The notes below the pieces were generated by a model. That model saw only the letters and a program-made list of their open reading frames with translations. It was not told the origin of the DNA and did no database searches. The position numbers and the translations under genes are program-made. DNA of 64,000 bases, taken from the sequence record LR990704. The stretch is one strand, 5' to 3'. Numbering within the stretch: position 1 is the first letter of the stretch; each line of letters begins with the position of its first letter. Below are positions 56,465 to 63,560 of the stretch, one piece after another. Source of the DNA: Escherichia phage vB_Eco_NR1.

Positions 56465-56827
56465 TTAAAAGAATTTAAATTTTTTCTTTGACCTTTTATT
56501 AAATGCATCTTGCAGTTGCATTGTAATACATTTTTCTACATGAGGAGCTAACTCAGCTTTTCTTTCTTGGTCAAGAACAGCAAAGTCCATTACGACTTTT
56601 CCATCAACCCAATCTAATTTTGTCACATACACAATGTGTGTAGAACCATCTTCTAGTTTAATGACAATCTCCTGGATAACATTTTCCATAGCGGATTTAA
56701 TTATCTTAAGAGACTCATTAAAAAGACGTTCTTTTCTTTCTTCTTCCCCCTCCGAAGAGGGGGATTCATCGATAATTTCTAGATCTAAGTCTAAATCATC
56801 TTTATTCATTAAATTCTTCCATATCAC
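56465..56827 (-). CDS. hypothetical acidic protein (120 aa) at the position of T4 gene 40
   Basis: ORF track; lies between 41 and uvsX; identity by position only. Confidence 0.55.
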   Translation of the reverse strand: MIWKNLMNKDDLDLDLEIIDESPSSEGEEERKERLFNESLKIIKSAMENVIQEIVIKLEDGSTHIVYVTKLDWVDGKVVMDFAVLDQERKAELAPHVEKCITMQLQDAFNKRSKKKFKFF

Positions 56828-57983
56828 TTAACTGTTCGAGGTCAGTTTCTAAATCAGCAGCTGATTTACTTTTACTTTCTGGAGATTTAAATTTTTCAAC
56901 CTTTGAGTTAATCAATTCATCAACTTCAGCTTCAACAATTTCATTACTATCAATAGCACCTAATTGATAAGCACGTTTAATAGCATCTCGGAATGGTTGA
57001 TGCTTAAATAAAGGACCCCAGAATGTAGTGCAGTTAGTATCTTTTGCACGCCAAGATTTTTCTTCGCGAATCATCTCGCCGGTTTCTTCGTCAAGAAATT
57101 CACGAGCATACCAACCATTCTTAGGTTTTACTACAAATCCTAATTCTAGAGCCATATCTAACAATCCAGAATAAGGATCGATACCACCGTCAAATTTAAC
57201 ATCAATAAAGAATTTACTTTTTTCTTTAACGGTACGAGATTTTTCTACATTTAGAACAAATTGATACCCCTGAAGATCAGAACCATCTTTAATCTGACGC
57301 TTACCGATAATGAATACAGTATCAGCCGAATACATTACGCCTGTACCACCTGTCATCACGGTTTTACTAAACATTTCAATTGTTTCAATTGTATGGTTAA
57401 CCGCAACACATGGAATATTTTTAATGCTAAAATAAGGAGTAACAATACGGAATAATGACTTCAGTGATTTAGCACGAGTCATATCTGCCACAGATTTTTC
57501 ATTCAAGGCATCTTCCGTTTCTTTCTTAGAAGCCATATTACCGATTGAGTCGATGAATACAATAACCTTTTCACCACGCTCAATAGCTTCAAGCTGGTTC
57601 ACCATATCAATTTTCAGTTGTTCAACTGACTGAATCGGCGTATGAATTACTCGTTCCGGGTCAACTCCCATGGATCGCAAATAAGCTGGAGTAATACCAA
57701 ATTCGCTATCATAGAATAGACAAACCGCGTCAGGATATTTGTTCAAATATGCCGCAACCATAGTCAAAGACATATTTGATTTAAAGTGTTTAGAAGGCCC
57801 TGCGAAAATAGTTAAACCAGACTGCATACCGCCATCAATCGCACCAGAAATAGCAATATTAAGCATTGGAATTTTTGTACGAATTACATCCTTTTCATTA
57901 AAGAATTTAGATGTAGTCAGTTCAGCAGTCATTTTAGAAGTGGAAGCTTTAATCAAACGGGATTTTAAATCTGCAATAGACAT
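56802..57983 (-). CDS. uvsX: UvsX recombinase (RecA-like)
   Basis: 393 aa; RecA fold Walker A GPSKHFKS; matches recalled T4 UvsX. Confidence 0.95.
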   Translation of the reverse strand: MSIADLKSRLIKASTSKMTAELTTSKFFNEKDVIRTKIPMLNIAISGAIDGGMQSGLTIFAGPSKHFKSNMSLTMVAAYLNKYPDAVCLFYDSEFGITPAYLRSMGVDPERVIHTPIQSVEQLKIDMVNQLEAIERGEKVIVFIDSIGNMASKKETEDALNEKSVADMTRAKSLKSLFRIVTPYFSIKNIPCVAVNHTIETIEMFSKTVMTGGTGVMYSADTVFIIGKRQIKDGSDLQGYQFVLNVEKSRTVKEKSKFFIDVKFDGGIDPYSGLLDMALELGFVVKPKNGWYAREFLDEETGEMIREEKSWRAKDTNCTTFWGPLFKHQPFRDAIKRAYQLGAIDSNEIVEAEVDELINSKVEKFKSPESKSKSAADLETDLEQLSDMEEFNE

Positions 57984-58060: not shown

Positions 58061-58909
58061 TTAATCAACTGCTATTGGATGAATAGCATTAAACTTATGA
58101 AATGCTTCTGATTTTTCTTTGCGCGAAACACACATGCGAAGAACCTTTAATGGCTCGTCTTCTTCACCCAACGATTTTCGTTTTTCAATATTAGAAGTTT
58201 TCCAACGAGCTTGCTCTGGAAACTCTCTATTGATTTGCTCAAGCGCTCTATTATGTTTAGAATTACTGCGAATTGAACTACACCCACCAGGAGCTTGTGC
58301 TTTTCCAGATACAACCAGATATTTGAACAAGGCCAAATGCGGATAACCTTGATTAATTAAATTGAGAAATGCATACATATCTTCGCACAAATCAATTTTT
58401 CCATACCCAATTTGTTCTGTTGTAAGTTTTCCAAGGTCATACCATGTATTCGTGAATCCATATGAATTTTCACGATAATTACCCCAAGATGAAGTAATTT
58501 TAAAAATTGGTAGACGAGCATGGCCATGATAATACCCGCAATCCATGGCATCTTCGACGTATTGAATCAATTCATAGAACTGTTCACGGGTTAATTGATT
58601 GACTTTATCTACACAACGACGGTCATCTCTTTTTCGCATTGAACTCATACGAATAGTAGTATCATCGTCAATCATCCAGATTCGTTGACCTGCATACATA
58701 TCAGTAATTGCTTTACGAGTACCAGCAATTCCATTTACATCGTCAGGAATAGTTATAATTTTAGCTCTAGACCCATAGGCATCATAATAAGCTTTTTCTT
58801 CATGTTCACGCACTACAATATGGGGTTCATAATTAGTCGGAAACATATCAAGGGCAGAAACTGCCCCGACACGCTGATAACTTGGAATTACGAATTGAAT
58901 CATTTCCAC
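58061..58909 (-). CDS. putative HMC-DNA glucosyltransferase, GT-A fold (T2/T6 beta-alpha-gt-like)
   Basis: 282 aa; N-terminal VIPSYQR and DDD (DxD) motif typical of GT-A glycosyltransferases; sits where T4 encodes GT-B beta-gt. Confidence 0.6.
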   Translation of the reverse strand: MEMIQFVIPSYQRVGAVSALDMFPTNYEPHIVVREHEEKAYYDAYGSRAKIITIPDDVNGIAGTRKAITDMYAGQRIWMIDDDTTIRMSSMRKRDDRRCVDKVNQLTREQFYELIQYVEDAMDCGYYHGHARLPIFKITSSWGNYRENSYGFTNTWYDLGKLTTEQIGYGKIDLCEDMYAFLNLINQGYPHLALFKYLVVSGKAQAPGGCSSIRSNSKHNRALEQINREFPEQARWKTSNIEKRKSLGEEDEPLKVLRMCVSRKEKSEAFHKFNAIHPIAVD

Positions 58910-59640
58910 TCACCTTTATAGTCTTTTTTCACAATATGAGTTTCGCCAGTATTCCACCAATGATCAACCAAGTAAAAATGACGAGAATATACATGAAGAC
59001 TTCCAACATTCCATATAATAGAACCTGCTTTATACTGACGAGTTGAATCGCCTGCATTCAAATCAGATACTAATTTATCTAATACGTATTTTTGCCATGC
59101 ATAATCATTACGGAATCCGAAGACCACGTCATTTGAGCGCATGCTTACTACTGCATTGACTTTCTTATCACGAATCAGGTACTGTACTGTATTAGTACAC
59201 ATGAAATCTGACATACCATCTTTATTGTAGTCAAATTGCATGGATGGACGAGTATAAATCATGATACCACGCCGAGAATCAGGATTTTGACCAAGTTCAG
59301 CTAAACACATATCATACTGGGCATAGTTATCTTCTGACCAAATAGCCCAACCATAATTCGAGTTAATTTCGCCTTTAGAAGATGCTACCTGCTGCCAAAT
59401 CTTTGGTGTTTCACCTGGAATATCTTTAACAAACAAGCTCTTAGATTTATACCATTCAAGTTCGCGCTGAATGTATTCATCATTAAGAGCACCAAAAATA
59501 AACGGTTCATCTGCTACAAATGATGCGCCAATAATTTCAATAGTTTTAACACCAGTTTTATCAACTACGAAATCTTTTTCTTTTAATGCAAGCCCCAAAT
59601 GAAGACGGATTTCTTCAACTGTCATAGAGTCACTAATCAT
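58900..59640 (-). CDS. 42: dCMP hydroxymethylase gp42
   Basis: 246 aa as in T4 gp42; thymidylate-synthase-like fold. Confidence 0.95.
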   Translation of the reverse strand: MISDSMTVEEIRLHLGLALKEKDFVVDKTGVKTIEIIGASFVADEPFIFGALNDEYIQRELEWYKSKSLFVKDIPGETPKIWQQVASSKGEINSNYGWAIWSEDNYAQYDMCLAELGQNPDSRRGIMIYTRPSMQFDYNKDGMSDFMCTNTVQYLIRDKKVNAVVSMRSNDVVFGFRNDYAWQKYVLDKLVSDLNAGDSTRQYKAGSIIWNVGSLHVYSRHFYLVDHWWNTGETHIVKKDYKGEWK

Positions 59641-59647
59641 TTAAACC

Positions 59648-59797
59648 TCAATTGATACATTCATATTTAACTTGTAACAGTAATAAACTCCAACCTAAAA
59701 TAATAGTTGGAATCATAAGAGGAACCGTTACACTATAGTATATACTTATTATAATCATCAAGATTAAAAGCAACACTGCTATAATTTTGCTTTTCAT
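59648..59797 (-). CDS. small hydrophobic protein (49 aa), imm.1-like
   Basis: manual translation MKSKIIAVLLLILMIIISIYYSVTVPLMIPTIILGWSLLLLQVKYECIN; ATG overlaps imm stop (ATGA). Confidence 0.5.
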   Translation of the reverse strand: MKSKIIAVLLLILMIIISIYYSVTVPLMIPTIILGWSLLLLQVKYECIN

Positions 59798-60045
59798 TCC
59801 TTCTCTCTGATGATAATTACCTGATTTGGTTGTGCAGACTTTTTAGTTTCACCCGCAATTGACCAAATAAATGTAATAAACCAACCAATAATTGACCAGT
59901 TAAACAGTAAAGATGTGAAAAAGATTCCTACTGTCGATTTTGACCCACGCATCAAAGCAATAAACCATGGAAGCATGTATATAATAATAGCCAACACACC
60001 TGAAACTAAAACCATAAAAATTGAACCTGCTACTAAAGTTTCCAT
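59794..60045 (-). CDS. imm: immunity protein Imm (superinfection exclusion, membrane)
   Basis: 83 aa, two TM segments; matches recalled T4 Imm. Confidence 0.88.
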   Translation of the reverse strand: METLVAGSIFMVLVSGVLAIIIYMLPWFIALMRGSKSTVGIFFTSLLFNWSIIGWFITFIWSIAGETKKSAQPNQVIIIREKE

Positions 60046-60052
60046 GTTTTCC

Positions 60053-60433
60053 TCACTTAGTCAAATTTTTTACACATGAATTATAAGAATTCACTACATA
60101 CTCCATCGGAGCATTTTTACCAGTACGCCATTGGTAATTATTAGCCCAATTAGCCCAAAGCTCGGCGCAGTAGTTTTCAATTTTTTCTTCGCGTGTAATT
60201 ACATCCGAATTACGATATGCTTGAGCAGATTCATCTGGACGAATAGCTTCGTCAAAATTCGCCTGCATTTGTTCGACTGTTTGCTTTGGAGCTTCTTTAT
60301 AACACTTGACATTAGGATTATAAAATTTGCTTGAACAGTTTACAATTTTTCCTACATCAGACTGATTTACTACCGGTCCTTGAGCTACACAACCAGTAAG
60401 ACCTAATGCAATAACCAAAATAGCGATTTTCAT
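60053..60433 (-). CDS. putative lipoprotein (126 aa)
   Basis: signal peptide and lipobox LTGC (MKIAILVIALGLTGCVAQ); several Cys in mature part. Confidence 0.6.
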   Translation of the reverse strand: MKIAILVIALGLTGCVAQGPVVNQSDVGKIVNCSSKFYNPNVKCYKEAPKQTVEQMQANFDEAIRPDESAQAYRNSDVITREEKIENYCAELWANWANNYQWRTGKNAPMEYVVNSYNSCVKNLTK

Positions 60434-60443
60434 AATAATTTCC

Positions 60444-60692
60444 TCAAATGCAAGTAGTAATTACTCCAGTAGTGCTTATGCAGGTATTACCCATTTGCAC
60501 ACCTAAAGATCCATTTGTATTCACATGAAGATTATCATCAATTTTAACTGATATTTTACCATTAGTGTGAATAACGGTGCTAGATTCAATCACAGGTTGA
60601 GTATCATTTTCAACACTAACAAATGGAACTGCTGCTAATGCAACTAAACAAACTGCTAAGCATCCCATAACAATTTTCATTTTATTCTCCAA
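60444..60692 (-). CDS. putative secreted protein (82 aa)
   Basis: N-terminal signal peptide (MKIVMGCLAVCLVALAAVPFVSVEN); early promoter upstream. Confidence 0.6.
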   Translation of the reverse strand: MENKMKIVMGCLAVCLVALAAVPFVSVENDTQPVIESSTVIHTNGKISVKIDDNLHVNTNGSLGVQMGNTCISTTGVITTCI

Positions 60693-60704
60693 ATCTGTAT
60701 CAGT

Positions 60705-60770
60705 AGTTGATAGTTGTATAGTACCATGGAAGAACAGTCTTGTAAACAGTTTTGTGAAAATTTTTTAGGG
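60705..60770 (-). promoter_or_regulatory. early promoter downstream of gene 43 terminator
   Basis: GTTTAC, 18 nt, TACTAT, A/T-rich UP element, conserved leader. Confidence 0.6.
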
Positions 60771-60827
60771 AATTCTAAATGTCCAGAATCATCTGTTTTT
60801 CATAAGTATAGATTTATATTACTTGTA

Positions 60828-60850
60828 TGAAAAAGGGACCCGGAGGTCCC
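60828..60850 (-). terminator. rho-independent terminator downstream of gene 43
   Basis: minus strand GGGACC-uccg-GGUCCC then U5. Confidence 0.75.
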
Positions 60851-60863
60851 TAGATTTATTCTA

Positions 60864-63560
60864 TCAGCCAAACAGGAAGTCTAACGAAGCTTTTTCTTCA
60901 TAGTCCATACCAGCCGATTCACACATGCCTGCAAGCGGTTTAACAAACGATTTTTGGAACAAAGTTGAGTAGTCAATCCAAGACAGTACGTCAGAACGAA
61001 TTTCTTTTGGAAGTTCTGTACCCGACGGCCAAGCAATGCATTTGTCACCAAATGGATTTCCTTCACGCAATGGAAGAACCATTACTTTATTTCCATCCAA
61101 AATTGGAGCTACACCTAAACCGCTAACAGCTCGACGATAAGTTAGCACACCACGAATATGGAACGGACATTTAAATCCTGGCCAACCTTTATCATCATAT
61201 TTCGCTATATCGTTCGCAGTTTTTACTTCAGCAATAACTTTATAGTCAAGTTGACGATATTCTTTCTCGAAGTTCTTGTAATATTCTTGGACAGACTCTT
61301 CACCTTCCTGAAGAATACGACGAATACTTTCTTCGAGAGCTTCTTGCACTGCCTTTGGTGTTGAACTCTGCTGAGTTTCCATACCCATGATTTTTAGATG
61401 CGGTTCAGCAAATCGCTTATCTTCCATATCATAAACGTTCAGAGCATAACGCTTTTTCGCTTTCCAAAATCCACCAACGCCCTTTGAACCAAGCGGAGGG
61501 CAAGAAATAGCTTCACGGTCCATATGCATCAGATGCTCGCGGTTATTCATATAATCACATAACTCACGATATGCAACATCAATCATAGGTTCCATCTTTT
61601 TCTTACCGAACTGATTCATGAATTCAACTAAATCGTTCTGCTCTTTGAATCGGTCAAGACCAACTTTTTCAATAACTTTATCTACACAAACATATACCGA
61701 ATCAGTATCACCTGCTGCAATGAAATCTTCACCATTAGTTCCGCATACTTTATTCAGATATTCATTAATTTTACGAGCAATCCACTGAATACCAACTTGG
61801 CCGAAAATTGTGATAGCAGTAGCATTTCGCAAATCATAGTAACGGAAATGAATATTACCAAGAGCACCATAAAGACTGTTAATAAGAATTTTACGGTTCA
61901 GCTGATTTGTGTTAGCAAGTGTAGCCGCTTTTTCGCATTCCTCAATCAGACTATTGAGAACAGATTCAGTATAATTCGATAGTTCATTTAAGAAATCATC
62001 ACTGAACTTAACATATCGTTCAACTTCTGGTTTAGTTGAACAGGACCCTGCGCCTTTCATAATAATCTTTTTAATAGCTTCGGCATTCATTTCTTCAGCG
62101 AACATTTTCTTTTTCCAATCTTTACGCTGGAAAAATACTTTAGCGATTTCCTTTGGAATGATACCTTCTTGATGCTTATCATACATCCATCCATTCGGAG
62201 AACAAGAATATTCATCACTCGGTTTAGGAGCTGTTCCTGCGATATATTCATGAATTGGATGAACTTTAAACTGCCCACGAATAGTCTCAGGACTAATGTT
62301 AACCTGACGAATAATGCTCGGATACAGAGACGTCAAGTCAAAACTCATAATATATCGACGAGCAATTGGTTTAGGTTCAAATACAAATGCACCCGGAAAA
62401 CTTTGTTTAACGTGCGAACCTTGTTGAGGAATAACCCTGTGTTCACCTTTCAATGAGTTAAAAATAATAGCATCCCAAGTTTTAATAGGACTCATTACAC
62501 CAGAAAAAGGCATTTTAGCGTAATAAGACATACTTAAAACTAGATCGATAAACCCGCGAATTTTATCAATTGCTTGAACTGATTCTACGTCAATGATGTT
62601 ATAACTAATGTATCGTTGATGATTAGTCTCACGAAGTTTATTAATAGGACCGTCGTATGGTAATTTACCTTTTTTGGTTTCATGTTGAGCAACTGATTCC
62701 AAAGAGAATGACGGCAAATTAGTAAAAGCGAATTTCTTGTACAAATCTAAATAATCAAGAATAGATACGCCATCAATAGAATAAATTTCTTTGCTACCGT
62801 ACATATTTTGAATTAGTTTAGATTTTACTCGACCGATTGGAGAGAAGCGTTTCATACTGCGTTCACCTAGAATCATTTTAACACGATTCATGATATACGG
62901 AACGTCAAACCCCTCAATATTCCAACCAGTAAAAATAGCAGGTCGTTTCTGTTCCCAGAGATTAATATATTCCATGAGCATATCACGCTCATTATCGAAT
63001 GGCATATAAATTACTCGGTCAAGAATTTCTTGAGGAACTTCATCACCACCTTCACAGTCAAGCTTAGCAGCTAACTTTGCATCCCATTTTGATACTGAAC
63101 CGTACATTGAATTCAAAAGGTCGAAAACATAAAAACGGTCATCAATTGAATCGTAATGAGTGATAGCATCAATTTCATATTCAGCTTTCATTGGGTCAGG
63201 AAATTTATCACCAGTAACCTCAATGTCACAGTTAGCTACACGAACAAATTTTCGGTCATAAACAATTTCTGAACCATACGTATCACTGATATAAGCGAGT
63301 TTAAAATCGTTCATACCGAGAGCTTCGAGACCGATGTCTTCCATTCGCTTCATCCAATCTCGAGCATCTTTCATTGATGGAAATTTTTGAGGAGCGCAAT
63401 TTTTACCATAAATGTCTTTGTATTTTGACTCTTCCTTACAATGCCTAAACATAGTCGGAAGATATTCTACTTCACGAGTACGTTCCTTTCCGTTTTCATC
63501 AATATAACGTTCAACAATGTTATTTCCGACTGTTTCAATAGAGATATAAAATTCTTTCAT
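60864..63560 (-). CDS. 43: DNA polymerase gp43 (family B)
   Basis: 898 aa as in T4 gp43; exo and pol motifs (ITGWNIEGFDVPY, YGDTDS). Confidence 0.97.
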   Translation of the reverse strand: MKEFYISIETVGNNIVERYIDENGKERTREVEYLPTMFRHCKEESKYKDIYGKNCAPQKFPSMKDARDWMKRMEDIGLEALGMNDFKLAYISDTYGSEIVYDRKFVRVANCDIEVTGDKFPDPMKAEYEIDAITHYDSIDDRFYVFDLLNSMYGSVSKWDAKLAAKLDCEGGDEVPQEILDRVIYMPFDNERDMLMEYINLWEQKRPAIFTGWNIEGFDVPYIMNRVKMILGERSMKRFSPIGRVKSKLIQNMYGSKEIYSIDGVSILDYLDLYKKFAFTNLPSFSLESVAQHETKKGKLPYDGPINKLRETNHQRYISYNIIDVESVQAIDKIRGFIDLVLSMSYYAKMPFSGVMSPIKTWDAIIFNSLKGEHRVIPQQGSHVKQSFPGAFVFEPKPIARRYIMSFDLTSLYPSIIRQVNISPETIRGQFKVHPIHEYIAGTAPKPSDEYSCSPNGWMYDKHQEGIIPKEIAKVFFQRKDWKKKMFAEEMNAEAIKKIIMKGAGSCSTKPEVERYVKFSDDFLNELSNYTESVLNSLIEECEKAATLANTNQLNRKILINSLYGALGNIHFRYYDLRNATAITIFGQVGIQWIARKINEYLNKVCGTNGEDFIAAGDTDSVYVCVDKVIEKVGLDRFKEQNDLVEFMNQFGKKKMEPMIDVAYRELCDYMNNREHLMHMDREAISCPPLGSKGVGGFWKAKKRYALNVYDMEDKRFAEPHLKIMGMETQQSSTPKAVQEALEESIRRILQEGEESVQEYYKNFEKEYRQLDYKVIAEVKTANDIAKYDDKGWPGFKCPFHIRGVLTYRRAVSGLGVAPILDGNKVMVLPLREGNPFGDKCIAWPSGTELPKEIRSDVLSWIDYSTLFQKSFVKPLAGMCESAGMDYEEKASLDFLFG

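What the first reader, a model, noticed from the sequence alone, without database searches (positions are those of the whole stretch)
60053..60692. Two exported proteins between imm and DNA polymerase gene 43
A 126-aa lipoprotein (lipobox LTGC, Cys-rich) and an 82-aa signal-peptide protein sit directly beside the superinfection-immunity gene imm and have their own early promoter and terminator. Periplasmic phage proteins in this neighbourhood (Imm, Sp) mediate superinfection exclusion or lysozyme inhibition, so these are candidate additional envelope-acting exclusion or anti-lysis factors. I do not recall ORFs at this position in T4.
Basis: partly seen in the sequence, partly recalled or inferred. 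Interest (0 to 1): 0.5.

Follow-up and report, generated by a model that had tools for sequence, protein, structure and literature searches.

The report
T4 imm.1 lipoprotein plus accessory ORF
The larger gene is imm.1, a catalogued but uncharacterised T4 lipoprotein gene that sat next to the superinfection-immunity gene imm in every T4-like phage examined, and the smaller one is an optional exported protein in a variable cargo slot.

Summary
Both ORFs are real, expressed-looking genes of a T2/T6-like Tequatrovirus.

**126-aa ORF (60053-60433, minus strand).** It is T4 gene imm.1 (Pfam DUF5481, phrog_1754, 99% identical to T4). It passes the lipoprotein lipobox rule. In T4 it is early in both RNA and protein, and it is dispensable in a CRISPRi screen. 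No function is published.

New here: homologues of this lipoprotein lie directly beside imm, on the same strand, in every T4-like lineage examined. That is 24 of 24 IMG/VR loci and seven genera. The pairing survives relocation in Mosigvirus, where the order is imm.1-imm-sp, and it survives reversal of gene order. It is absent from 18 of 18 loci with distant Imm-domain proteins. My best inference is a periplasmic partner of Imm in excluding superinfecting phage.

**"82-aa" ORF.** It most likely starts at the ATG at 60680, giving 78 aa. It is absent from T4 through a clean 247-bp indel bounded by an ATGAAAAT repeat. About 65% of Tequatrovirus records carry it. Other phages hold unrelated, non-exported genes in the same slot, so its position beside imm says little about its function.

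No MliC/PliC or Spackle resemblance was found. There is no separate downstream terminator.

The parts
60834..60851 (-). Intrinsic terminator of gene 43 (GGGACCTCCGGGTCCC followed by TTTTT). It lies upstream of the module, not downstream of it.
   Evidence: 7-bp stem, 5 GC pairs, T run; it starts 13 nt after the gene 43 stop; conserved in T4.
60718..60746 (-). Predicted early promoter: TTTACA, 17-nt spacer, TACTAT with an upstream TG, preceded by an A/T-rich tract. It would drive ORF78 - imm.1 - imm - orf49 (and gene 42).
   Evidence: 9/12 match plus TG; sequence read; invariant against T4, where it directly precedes imm.1; T4 imm.1 is early in RNA and protein (PMC9697503 supplements). The promoter itself is inferred, not shown.
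60444..60680 (-). ORF78 (phrog_4189): a 78-aa accessory protein with an N-terminal hydrophobic signal or anchor and a beta-rich 56-aa C-terminal part carrying 2 Cys.
60434..60680 (.). 247-bp segment absent from T4 (ORF78 plus a 10-nt spacer). It is bounded by the 8-bp direct repeat ATGAAAAT, read on the minus strand, at 60426-60433 and 60673-60680. That repeat is the first 8 nt of both imm.1 and ORF78.
   Evidence: alignment with T4; sequence.
60053..60433 (-). imm.1: a 126-aa lipoprotein precursor (lipobox LTGC, Cys15, Val at +2). It has a low-confidence (possibly disordered) tether of about 35 residues and a helical C-terminal domain. Tyr38, Cys89 and Cys120 are invariant across the superfamily.
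   Evidence: DUF5481, 5.4e-72; phrog_1754.
59794..60045 (-). imm, the superinfection immunity inner-membrane protein (83 aa). Its Shine-Dalgarno overlaps the imm.1 stop codon.
   Evidence: (PF14373, 7.7e-16); mechanism from bioRxiv 10.64898/2026.03.06.709160.
59648..59797 (-). orf49 (called gp42.1 in RB51; phrog_3610): a very hydrophobic 49-aa microprotein, likely two membrane helices. It overlaps the imm stop by ATGA and is not annotated in T4 RefSeq.

Best explanation
**Shown**
- The 126-aa ORF is the T4 early gene imm.1 (DUF5481 / phrog_1754).
- It encodes a small exported protein with a canonical lipobox.
- It is co-oriented with imm and spaced 7 nt from it. The imm.1 stop codon lies inside imm's ribosome-binding site.
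- Homologous lipoprotein genes flank imm in all T4-like lineages sampled.

**Inferred**
[quoted passage not shown] A flexible linker presents a disulfide-stabilised helical domain in the periplasm.
- There it acts on the same event as Imm, which sits in the inner membrane and binds the tape-measure protein gp29 of an incoming phage, and as Sp, which inhibits the gp5 lysozyme. That event is the arrival of a superinfecting tail tip.
- Imm.1 would either engage a component of that tail tip or support Imm, adding to exclusion or to protection of the envelope from secondary adsorption.
- It is an auxiliary factor, not required for Imm activity from a plasmid or for single-infection growth.

**The 78-aa ORF**
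- It is a separate, optional, exported or membrane-anchored beta-rich protein.
- It is carried in a recombination-prone cargo slot behind the early promoter. T4 lacks it, most simply through a deletion between two ATGAAAAT repeats.
- Its function is unknown. Its position does not tie it to imm.
For: **Identity of imm.1**
- Pfam DUF5481 at 5.4e-72 and phrog_1754 at 5e-44.
- 99.2% protein identity to T4 imm.1 at the syntenic site.

**Export**
- The PS51257 lipobox rule is met.
- All 9 lipobox-bearing members checked have the motif L/V/T-x-G-C, and none has Asp at +2. Two lineages (P0019, P0020) replace the lipobox with an AHA-type signal-peptidase-I site. The constant feature is therefore periplasmic location.
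- Two Cys are invariant across the superfamily.

**Expression**
- T4 Imm.1 is classed early-RNA and early-protein.

**Linkage to imm**
- tblastn counts for Imm.1 (501 records at >=95% identity plus 155 at about 33%) mirror the Imm identity classes (501 at >=90% and 156 at 60-80%).
- In Mosigvirus the pair has moved to the 41-61 region, as imm.1-imm-sp.
- All four metagenomic lineages checked keep DUF5481 immediately upstream of Imm_superinfect.
- In Gelderlandvirus, Jiaodavirus and Muldoonvirus a phrog_1754 lipoprotein gene lies upstream of imm. In Gaprivervirus and Dhakavirus it lies downstream (E-values 1.6e-15 to 4.5e-52).
- In an IMG/VR sample, 24 of 24 T4-like Imm loci have the lipoprotein gene adjacent. 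None of 18 loci with distant Imm-domain proteins does.

**Selection**
- In two comparisons, 11-12 synonymous against 0 non-synonymous differences within Tequatrovirus.
- Identity falls to 35-55% between lineages where Imm stays at 80-83%. This is the pattern expected of a specificity-bearing partner.

**Imm mechanism and sufficiency**

**ORF78**
- The indel is clean.
- It is present in 325 phage records.
- The slot has at least four alternative states.
- dN/dS is about 0.35.
Against: **Against a role for Imm.1 in exclusion**
- No experiment links Imm.1 to exclusion.
- Knock-down in T4 gave no fitness effect (score -0.77, "Not Fit"). That assay does not measure superinfection.
- Plasmid-borne Imm alone excludes T4, so Imm.1 is not essential for Imm.
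- Conserved adjacency can also reflect shared regulation or shared membrane-targeting needs rather than a shared function.

**Weak points in the structural and homology evidence**
- The structure model is only moderate (mean pLDDT 62; N-terminal 47 residues below 50). It gives no informative fold match.
- Profile-profile comparison of the mature parts of the DUF5481 group against the longer lipoproteins reached only 72% probability, over the N-terminal motif. Superfamily homology therefore rests mainly on the PHROG profile.
- Lipidation and outer-membrane localisation are predictions.

**ORF78**
- Cleavage versus anchoring is unresolved.
- The structure model is poor (pLDDT 52.6).
Confidence: 0.45

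Rival explanations
1. Imm.1 is a periplasmic or outer-membrane protein whose job is unrelated to blocking incoming phage. Examples would be modulating lysis timing or lysis inhibition, protecting against a host envelope stress or defence, or helping membrane insertion of small phage proteins. On this view it travels with imm only because both are early, envelope-targeted genes sharing one promoter.
For: Knock-down gave no fitness phenotype. Imm works without it. The module also carries a third membrane microprotein of unknown role (orf49). No fold or sequence match points to any tail-binding protein.
Against: The pairing persists through a relocation to a different genome region and through reversal of gene order. 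That is hard to explain by promoter sharing alone. In Mosigvirus the pair sits next to sp, the other known exclusion gene.
Confidence: 0.3
2. Imm.1 is a receptor-masking lipoprotein of the T5 Llp / Cor type. It would bind the phage's outer-membrane receptor from the periplasmic side and block adsorption or triggering.
For: It is a small, early lipoprotein predicted to go to the outer membrane. The Serratia PS2 homologue gives a weak hit to the Cor PHROG (8e-4), but only over the signal peptide (residues 1-40).
Against: The imm.1 gene is 97-100% identical in DNA across T2-, T4- and T6-type phages (the T4 protein is 99.2% identical to the window's). By established knowledge these use different receptors (OmpC, FadL/OmpF, Tsx). 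T4 exclusion does not block secondary adsorption (review PMC6832632). There is no sequence or fold similarity to Llp or Cor beyond the signal peptide.
Confidence: 0.05
3. One or both proteins are periplasmic lysozyme inhibitors, either MliC/PliC-like or Spackle-like.
For: Both are predicted to be periplasmic and expressed early. Spackle is likewise a small, disulfide-containing helical periplasmic protein, and it lies next to imm.1-imm in Mosigvirus.
Confidence: 0.07
4. ORF78 is a functional member of the imm module, a fourth exclusion component, rather than unrelated cargo.
For: It is co-transcribed with imm.1 and imm and is predicted to be exported, like them. It is retained in about 65% of Tequatrovirus records.
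Against: It is absent from T4, T6 and many RB phages, which exclude normally. The slot holds unrelated, non-exported ORFs in RB51 and in locus L009. The Dhakavirus homologue sits in the e.1 (NUDIX) region, far from imm. Selection on it is more relaxed (dN/dS 0.35).
Confidence: 0.1

Closest known systems
T4 Imm.1 (NP_049661 / UniProt P18057; Pfam DUF5481; phrog_1754)
   Same: Same gene: 99% protein identity, the same position upstream of imm, the same promoter region and the same lipobox (T4 LAGC, window LTGC).
   Different: One extra C-terminal residue (126 against 125 aa). In the window a 247-bp cassette (ORF78) separates it from the promoter. The RefSeq product name "iduronate sulfatase" is unsupported: no NCBIfam model approaches its cutoff and no Pfam sulfatase family matches.
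T4 Imm (PF14373) and Spackle, the two characterised T4 superinfection-exclusion proteins
   Same: Early genes with envelope-located products. Imm is the invariable neighbour of Imm.1. In Mosigvirus imm.1, imm and sp are contiguous.
   Different: There is no sequence or fold relationship to either. Imm is a polytopic inner-membrane protein that binds the tape-measure protein. Sp is a soluble inhibitor of the gp5 lysozyme. Imm.1 is a lipoprotein with no known ligand.
T5 Llp and the Cor family of outer-membrane lipoproteins (receptor-blocking superinfection exclusion)
   Same: Small, phage-encoded, early-expressed lipoproteins predicted to sit in the inner leaflet of the outer membrane.
   Different: There is no homology beyond the signal peptide. 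Imm.1 is nearly invariant among phages that use different receptors, and T4 exclusion leaves adsorption intact. A receptor-masking mechanism is therefore unlikely.
phrog_4189 small proteins of Tequatrovirus and Dhakavirus (for ORF78)
   Same: ORF78 is a full-length member (4.8e-30), and identical copies occur in many sequenced phages.
   Different: The family has no Pfam model, no known function and no fixed genomic position.

Membership tests
Pfam DUF5481 / PHROG 1754 (T4 Imm.1 family) | Full-length match to the family profile above the curated cutoff | tested here: met
   PF17578 scores 239 bits against a cutoff of 27 and covers 103 of 103 profile positions. phrog_1754 matches at 5e-44.
Pfam DUF5481 / PHROG 1754 (T4 Imm.1 family) | Position immediately adjacent to imm on the same strand | tested here: met
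   A 7-nt gap to imm in the window. The same holds in T4, in Mosigvirus, in four metagenomic lineages, in five other genera and in 24 of 24 T4-like IMG/VR loci.
Bacterial lipoprotein precursors (PROSITE PS51257; signal peptidase II substrates) | K/R within the first 7 residues, an uncharged h-region, the lipobox [LIVMFWSTAG]2-[LIVMFYSTAGCQ]-[AGS]-C, and Cys at positions 15-35 | tested here: met
   ILVIALGLTGC with Cys15 and K2. The Pfam LPAM_1 hit is weak (E 0.44). Two family lineages lack the Cys and have an AHA site instead.
Bacterial lipoprotein precursors (PROSITE PS51257; signal peptidase II substrates) | Actual lipid modification and outer-membrane sorting | not testable with these tools
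   Requires globomycin sensitivity, palmitate labelling and membrane fractionation. The +2 residue is Val (not Asp), which by the E. coli Lol rule predicts the outer membrane.
MliC/PliC periplasmic lysozyme inhibitors | Beta-barrel or beta-sandwich fold with the family motifs; Pfam MliC/PliC match | tested here: not met
T4 Spackle (Sp) | Sequence or fold similarity to Sp | tested here: not met
   BLASTP of Imm.1 against the Mosigvirus Sp homologue gives E 0.59. A PDB profile search with the Imm.1 family returned 0 hits.
Llp / Cor receptor-blocking lipoproteins | Profile match beyond the signal peptide; co-variation with receptor specificity | tested here: not met
   The only match is a signal-peptide-only hit of the PS2 homologue to the Cor PHROG (residues 1-40, E 8e-4). 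The imm.1 gene is 97-100% identical in DNA across T2-, T4- and T6-type phages.
PHROG 4189 (ORF78) | Full-length profile match | tested here: met
   E 4.8e-30, covering profile positions 1-71 of 71. The Dhakavirus homologue matches at 1.5e-10.
Sec signal-peptide proteins (ORF78) | n-h-c tripartite signal with an AXA cleavage site, as opposed to an uncleaved anchor | tested here: inconclusive
   K2; a hydrophobic run at residues 3-21 (Kyte-Doolittle 2.73); ALA at 14-16. Natural variants lengthen the hydrophobic run by 7-aa duplications. No dedicated predictor was available.
Known anti-phage defence proteins (PADLOC) | Significant match to a PADLOC model | tested here: not met
   Only chance-level hits (E 0.0044 and 0.039; 12-14 bits).

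The most novel reading that the evidence does not exclude
Imm.1 is a third, so far overlooked component of T-even superinfection exclusion. It would be an outer-membrane-tethered periplasmic protein that recognises a lineage-specific part of the incoming tail tip (tape-measure protein, gp5/gp27 hub or spike). It would work with inner-membrane Imm, and perhaps with the 49-aa microprotein, as a trans-envelope trap. Its deep divergence between lineages, set against the conservation of Imm, would then determine which related phages are excluded.
Probability: 0.2. Interest if true: 0.6.

Novelty: new member of a known kind. Interest (0 to 1): 0.35.

Why it matters
T4 superinfection exclusion has been explained by two proteins. 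Sp acts against the gp5 lysozyme. Imm, according to a 2026 preprint, acts against the tape-measure protein.

A lipoprotein gene accompanied imm in every T4-like lineage examined here, yet it has never been tested. That suggests the system has an unstudied periplasmic arm. With T4 genetics and existing Imm assays the idea is directly testable.

The result also corrects several points:
- The gene is not new to T4.
- The RefSeq name "iduronate sulfatase" is unfounded.
- The small neighbouring ORF is swap-slot cargo, not evidence of a larger exclusion cluster.

Tried and rejected
**Fold searches with the Imm.1 model**
- BFVD: only its own family.
- afdb50 was unavailable.

**ORF78 structure**
- The model is too weak (pLDDT 52.6).
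- BFVD gave only its own family, plus weak hits (E 0.03-0.13) to 65-68-aa proteins of other T4-like phages.

**Sequence searches**
- PDB profile searches found nothing significant.
- An apparent resemblance of ORF78 to the gp5-type beta-helix (9f4a, E 3.1) was tested against shuffled T4 gp5C. It was no better than composition and periodicity allow: 19 of 1000 shuffles scored at least as high, and octad-order shuffles reached 13 bits. I rejected it as homology.
- NCBIfam and PADLOC returned nothing useful.
- Rfam had no hits in the whole window.

**Family comparisons**
- hhalign of the mature Imm.1 groups gave only 72% probability.
- The search for related loci with the 11-sequence superfamily alignment failed for lack of a conserved stretch. 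I approached from the Imm side instead.

**Literature**
- One paper lists Imm.1 as a T4-group marker (PMC5885020).
- Otherwise only the omics and CRISPRi supplements mention it.
- Lu & Henning 1989 and Lu et al. 1993 are not held.

Full report
**What is in the sequence**

The last 7 kb of the window is the uvsX-to-43 segment of a T4-like phage, all on the minus strand:
- uvsX (56802-57983)
- a 282-aa TAGT-type glucosyltransferase (58061-58909)
- gene 42 (58900-59640)
- a 49-aa hydrophobic ORF (59648-59797)
- imm (59794-60045)
- the 126-aa ORF (60053-60433)
- the "82-aa" ORF (60444-60692)
- gene 43 (60864-63560)

Megablast of 59600-60900 finds 518 phage records. Nearly all are Tequatrovirus, and 497 cover at least 80% of the query at 90-99.6% identity. 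So the region is ordinary, much-sequenced T-even DNA.

**The 126-aa ORF is T4 imm.1**

- It matches Pfam DUF5481 at 5.4e-72 and phrog_1754 at 5e-44.
- The T4 reference genome annotates imm.1 (NP_049661, 26636-27013) in exactly this position, between imm and 43. The proteins are 99% identical.
- RefSeq calls the T4 protein "iduronate sulfatase". No Pfam or NCBIfam model supports that name.

**Export signal and structure of Imm.1**

- The N-terminus MKIAILVIALGLTGC satisfies the PROSITE lipoprotein rule, with Cys15 and Val at +2.
- Four further Cys lie in the mature part.
- AlphaFold2 with a shallow alignment gives a low-confidence (possibly disordered) stretch of about 47 residues. It is followed by a four-helix C-terminal domain with pLDDT 70-86 (mean 62).
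- In BFVD it matches only its own family.
- There is no similarity to Spackle or to any solved structure by sequence.
- The MliC/PliC idea is not supported.

**What is known about Imm.1**

- In the T4 time-resolved omics data it is classed early at both RNA and protein level (PMC9697503, supplementary files 4 and 6).
- In the CRISPRi-ART genome-wide screen it is labelled "Unknown". Knock-down is "Not Fit" (score -0.77, p 0.98), meaning dispensable for ordinary growth (PMC11879866, supplementary file 15).
- One comparative paper lists it as a T4-group marker and guesses at exclusion (PMC5885020).
- I found no functional study.

**The family and its linkage to imm**

The DUF5481 family proper is tiny. 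An exhaustive HMMER search of 1.84 billion representative proteins returns six.

tblastn finds Imm.1 in 656 phage records: 501 at >=95% identity and 155 at about 33%. These numbers mirror the Imm identity classes, which are 501 records at >=90% and 156 at 60-80%.

| Lineage | Arrangement |
|---|---|
| Mosigvirus (the ~33% group) | Pair relocated between genes 41 and 61; order imm.1 - imm - sp |
| Three divergent metagenomic lineages (four loci: L004/L005, L006/L007, L008) | 43 - DUF5481 - Imm - 42 |
| Fourth metagenomic lineage (L009) | Same, with a Frd.3-like ORF inserted ahead of the lipoprotein gene |
| Gelderlandvirus S16, Jiaodavirus, Serratia PS2 | 147-149-aa lipoprotein gene immediately upstream of imm |
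| Gaprivervirus SP18, Dhakavirus IME08 | 166-167-aa lipoprotein gene just downstream of imm |

The last two rows are genera where tblastn with T4 Imm.1 finds nothing. All five of their lipoproteins match phrog_1754 full-length, at 1.6e-15 to 4.5e-52.

They share several features with Imm.1:
- the lipobox
- a post-lipobox motif (G-D/E-V-V-x-A-x-E-V-G-K)
- a conserved Tyr
- two invariant C-terminal Cys

A direct profile-profile comparison of the mature parts reached only 72% probability. The deep homology therefore rests mainly on the PHROG profile.

Two lineages (P0019, P0020) have lost the lipobox Cys and carry an AHA-type signal peptide instead. Periplasmic location, rather than lipidation, is the constant feature.

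As a less biased test I fetched 42 Imm loci from IMG/VR and scanned them with an HMM of the superfamily:
- 24 of 24 loci with a T4-like Imm have the lipoprotein gene adjacent on the same strand. It is upstream in 16 and downstream in 8.
- None of the 18 loci with distant Imm-domain proteins has it. Most of those are on contigs of about 40 kb.
- Those 18 loci have no other credible lipoprotein neighbour either.

**Selection pattern**

- Within Tequatrovirus, imm.1 shows 11-12 synonymous and 0 non-synonymous differences in two comparisons. dN/dS is 0-0.03 in most comparisons and at most 0.25.
- Between lineages whose Imm proteins remain 80-83% identical, Imm.1 falls to 35-55%.
- Strong constraint within a type, with deep divergence between types, is what one expects of a protein matched to a lineage-specific partner.

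**Mechanistic reading**

- A 2026 preprint shows that Imm binds the helical-bundle domain of the tape-measure protein gp29 and so blocks genome translocation. It also shows that plasmid-borne Imm alone excludes T4 (bioRxiv 10.64898/2026.03.06.709160).
- Sp inhibits the gp5 lysozyme (PMC7677548, abstract listed).
- T4 exclusion does not prevent secondary adsorption (PMC6832632).
- Against that background, the most economical reading is that Imm.1 is an auxiliary, outer-membrane-tethered periplasmic factor acting on the same incoming tail tip, or supporting Imm.
- This is inference from synteny, localisation signals, expression timing and selection pattern. No experiment shows it. I put it at roughly 45%.
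- A receptor-masking role of the Llp/Cor kind is unlikely. The imm.1 gene is 97-100% identical in DNA in T2-, T4- and T6-type phages. Those phages use different receptors (established knowledge).

**The small ORF**

- The ORF list starts it at a TTG (60692) that lies inside the GGAG Shine-Dalgarno. All named database entries, and most clusters, begin at the ATG at 60680 (MKIVMGC...), giving 78 aa.
- It belongs to phrog_4189, has no Pfam family, and occurs in 325 phage records. That is about 65% of the records with Tequatrovirus-type Imm.1.
- Alignment with T4 shows a single clean 247-bp indel (60434-60680). It is bounded by the 8-bp repeat ATGAAAAT, which is the first 8 nt of both ORF78 and imm.1.
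- In T4 the same promoter and ribosome-binding site are therefore fused directly to imm.1. A deletion between short repeats is the simplest history.
- Residues 3-21 are strongly hydrophobic, with a possible ALA|A cleavage site. Natural variants lengthen this segment by 7-aa duplications, and one of them creates a canonical LAAC lipobox. Whether it is a cleaved signal or an anchor is unresolved.
- The remaining 56 residues are predicted as six short beta strands with two C-terminal Cys, at low confidence (pLDDT 52.6).
- They divide into seven octads with significant 8-residue hydrophobic periodicity (40 of 5000 shuffles reach the observed value). An apparent similarity to the gp5 beta-helix is no better than shuffled controls.
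- dN/dS of about 0.35 indicates a genuine but less constrained gene.

**The slot ORF78 occupies is variable**

- It is empty in T4.
- It holds an unrelated 83-aa non-exported ORF (phrog_18567) in RB51.
- It holds a Frd.3-like acidic ORF in a metagenomic relative.
- The Dhakavirus homologue of ORF78 lies in the e.1 (NUDIX) region instead.

Its position next to imm.1 is therefore weak evidence of function.

**Transcription**

- The only terminator (60851-60834) directly follows gene 43 and precedes a promoter-like site: TTTACA, 17-nt spacer, TG-n-TACTAT (60746-60718).
- No terminator-like site lies between that promoter and gene 42.
- The stop codons of ORF78 and imm.1 lie within the Shine-Dalgarno of the next gene. 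imm and orf49 overlap by ATGA.
- The two ORFs are thus the first two genes of an early operon that continues into imm. They are not a self-contained unit.
- The promoter call is a consensus match, and the number of such matches in the region is not above chance. It gains weight only from its identity with T4 and from the early expression of T4 imm.1.

**Verdict**

- One gene is the known, uncharacterised T4 gene imm.1. The other is a common accessory ORF.
- The useful new point is the strict, rearrangement-proof association of the Imm.1 lipoprotein family with imm across T4-like phages. It nominates Imm.1 as an untested periplasmic component of superinfection exclusion.

Noticed in passing
window 59648-59797 (-): A very hydrophobic 49-aa ORF overlaps the imm stop codon (ATGA). 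It belongs to phrog_3610 and is annotated as gp42.1 in RB51. T4 RefSeq does not annotate it although the DNA is nearly identical. It is conserved at 52-61% identity in distant lineages (dN/dS about 0.3) and follows imm in 12 of 24 T4-like IMG/VR loci. It may be a third member of the imm module.
   Followed up: partly
L002 3995-5030 (Mosigvirus JN02): In RB69-like phages imm.1, imm and sp (spackle) are contiguous between genes 41 and 61. The two known exclusion genes and imm.1 form one cluster there, whereas in T4 sp lies about 6 kb from imm.
   Followed up: partly
window 60434-60692; L058 1294-1545; L009 450-662: The slot between the post-gene-43 early promoter and imm.1 has at least four states: empty (T4), ORF78 (window), an 83-aa phrog_18567 ORF (RB51) and a Frd.3-like 70-aa ORF (metagenomic). 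The terminator-plus-early-promoter arrangement resembles the mobile regulatory cassettes described for T4-type hyperplastic regions (from memory, not checked).
   Followed up: partly
window 60615-60680 (ORF78 residues 1-22) and alignment A1: Natural alleles of ORF78 differ by tandem 7-aa duplications (CLVALAA) inside the N-terminal hydrophobic segment. One allele (HY01 type) thereby gains a canonical LAAC lipobox and is labelled "Lipoprotein" in UniRef.
   Followed up: no
window 60444-60611 (ORF78 mature part): The 56 mature residues split into exactly seven octads with 8-residue hydrophobic periodicity (lag-8 autocorrelation 0.29; 40 of 5000 shuffles). This is reminiscent of the gp5C beta-helix, but sequence similarity to gp5 is not above shuffled controls. 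A trimeric beta-helix is an untested possibility.
   Followed up: partly
window 58061-58909 (-): A 282-aa TAGT-family glucosyltransferase (phrog_842, beta-glucosyl-HMC-alpha-glucosyltransferase) sits where T4 has beta-gt, and there is no segA. The phage therefore carries the T2/T6-type DNA-glucosylation gene set, not the T4 one.
   Followed up: no
T4 NC_000866 26636-27013 (L001 6637-7014): RefSeq names T4 imm.1 "iduronate sulfatase", and this name has propagated to other phage records. No Pfam or NCBIfam model supports it, so it looks like an annotation error.
   Followed up: yes
L004, L009 versus window (imm and imm.1): Between lineages Imm stays 80-83% identical while the adjacent Imm.1 drops to 35-55%. 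Within Tequatrovirus Imm.1 is almost invariant. The two neighbours evolve at strikingly different rates.
   Followed up: partly
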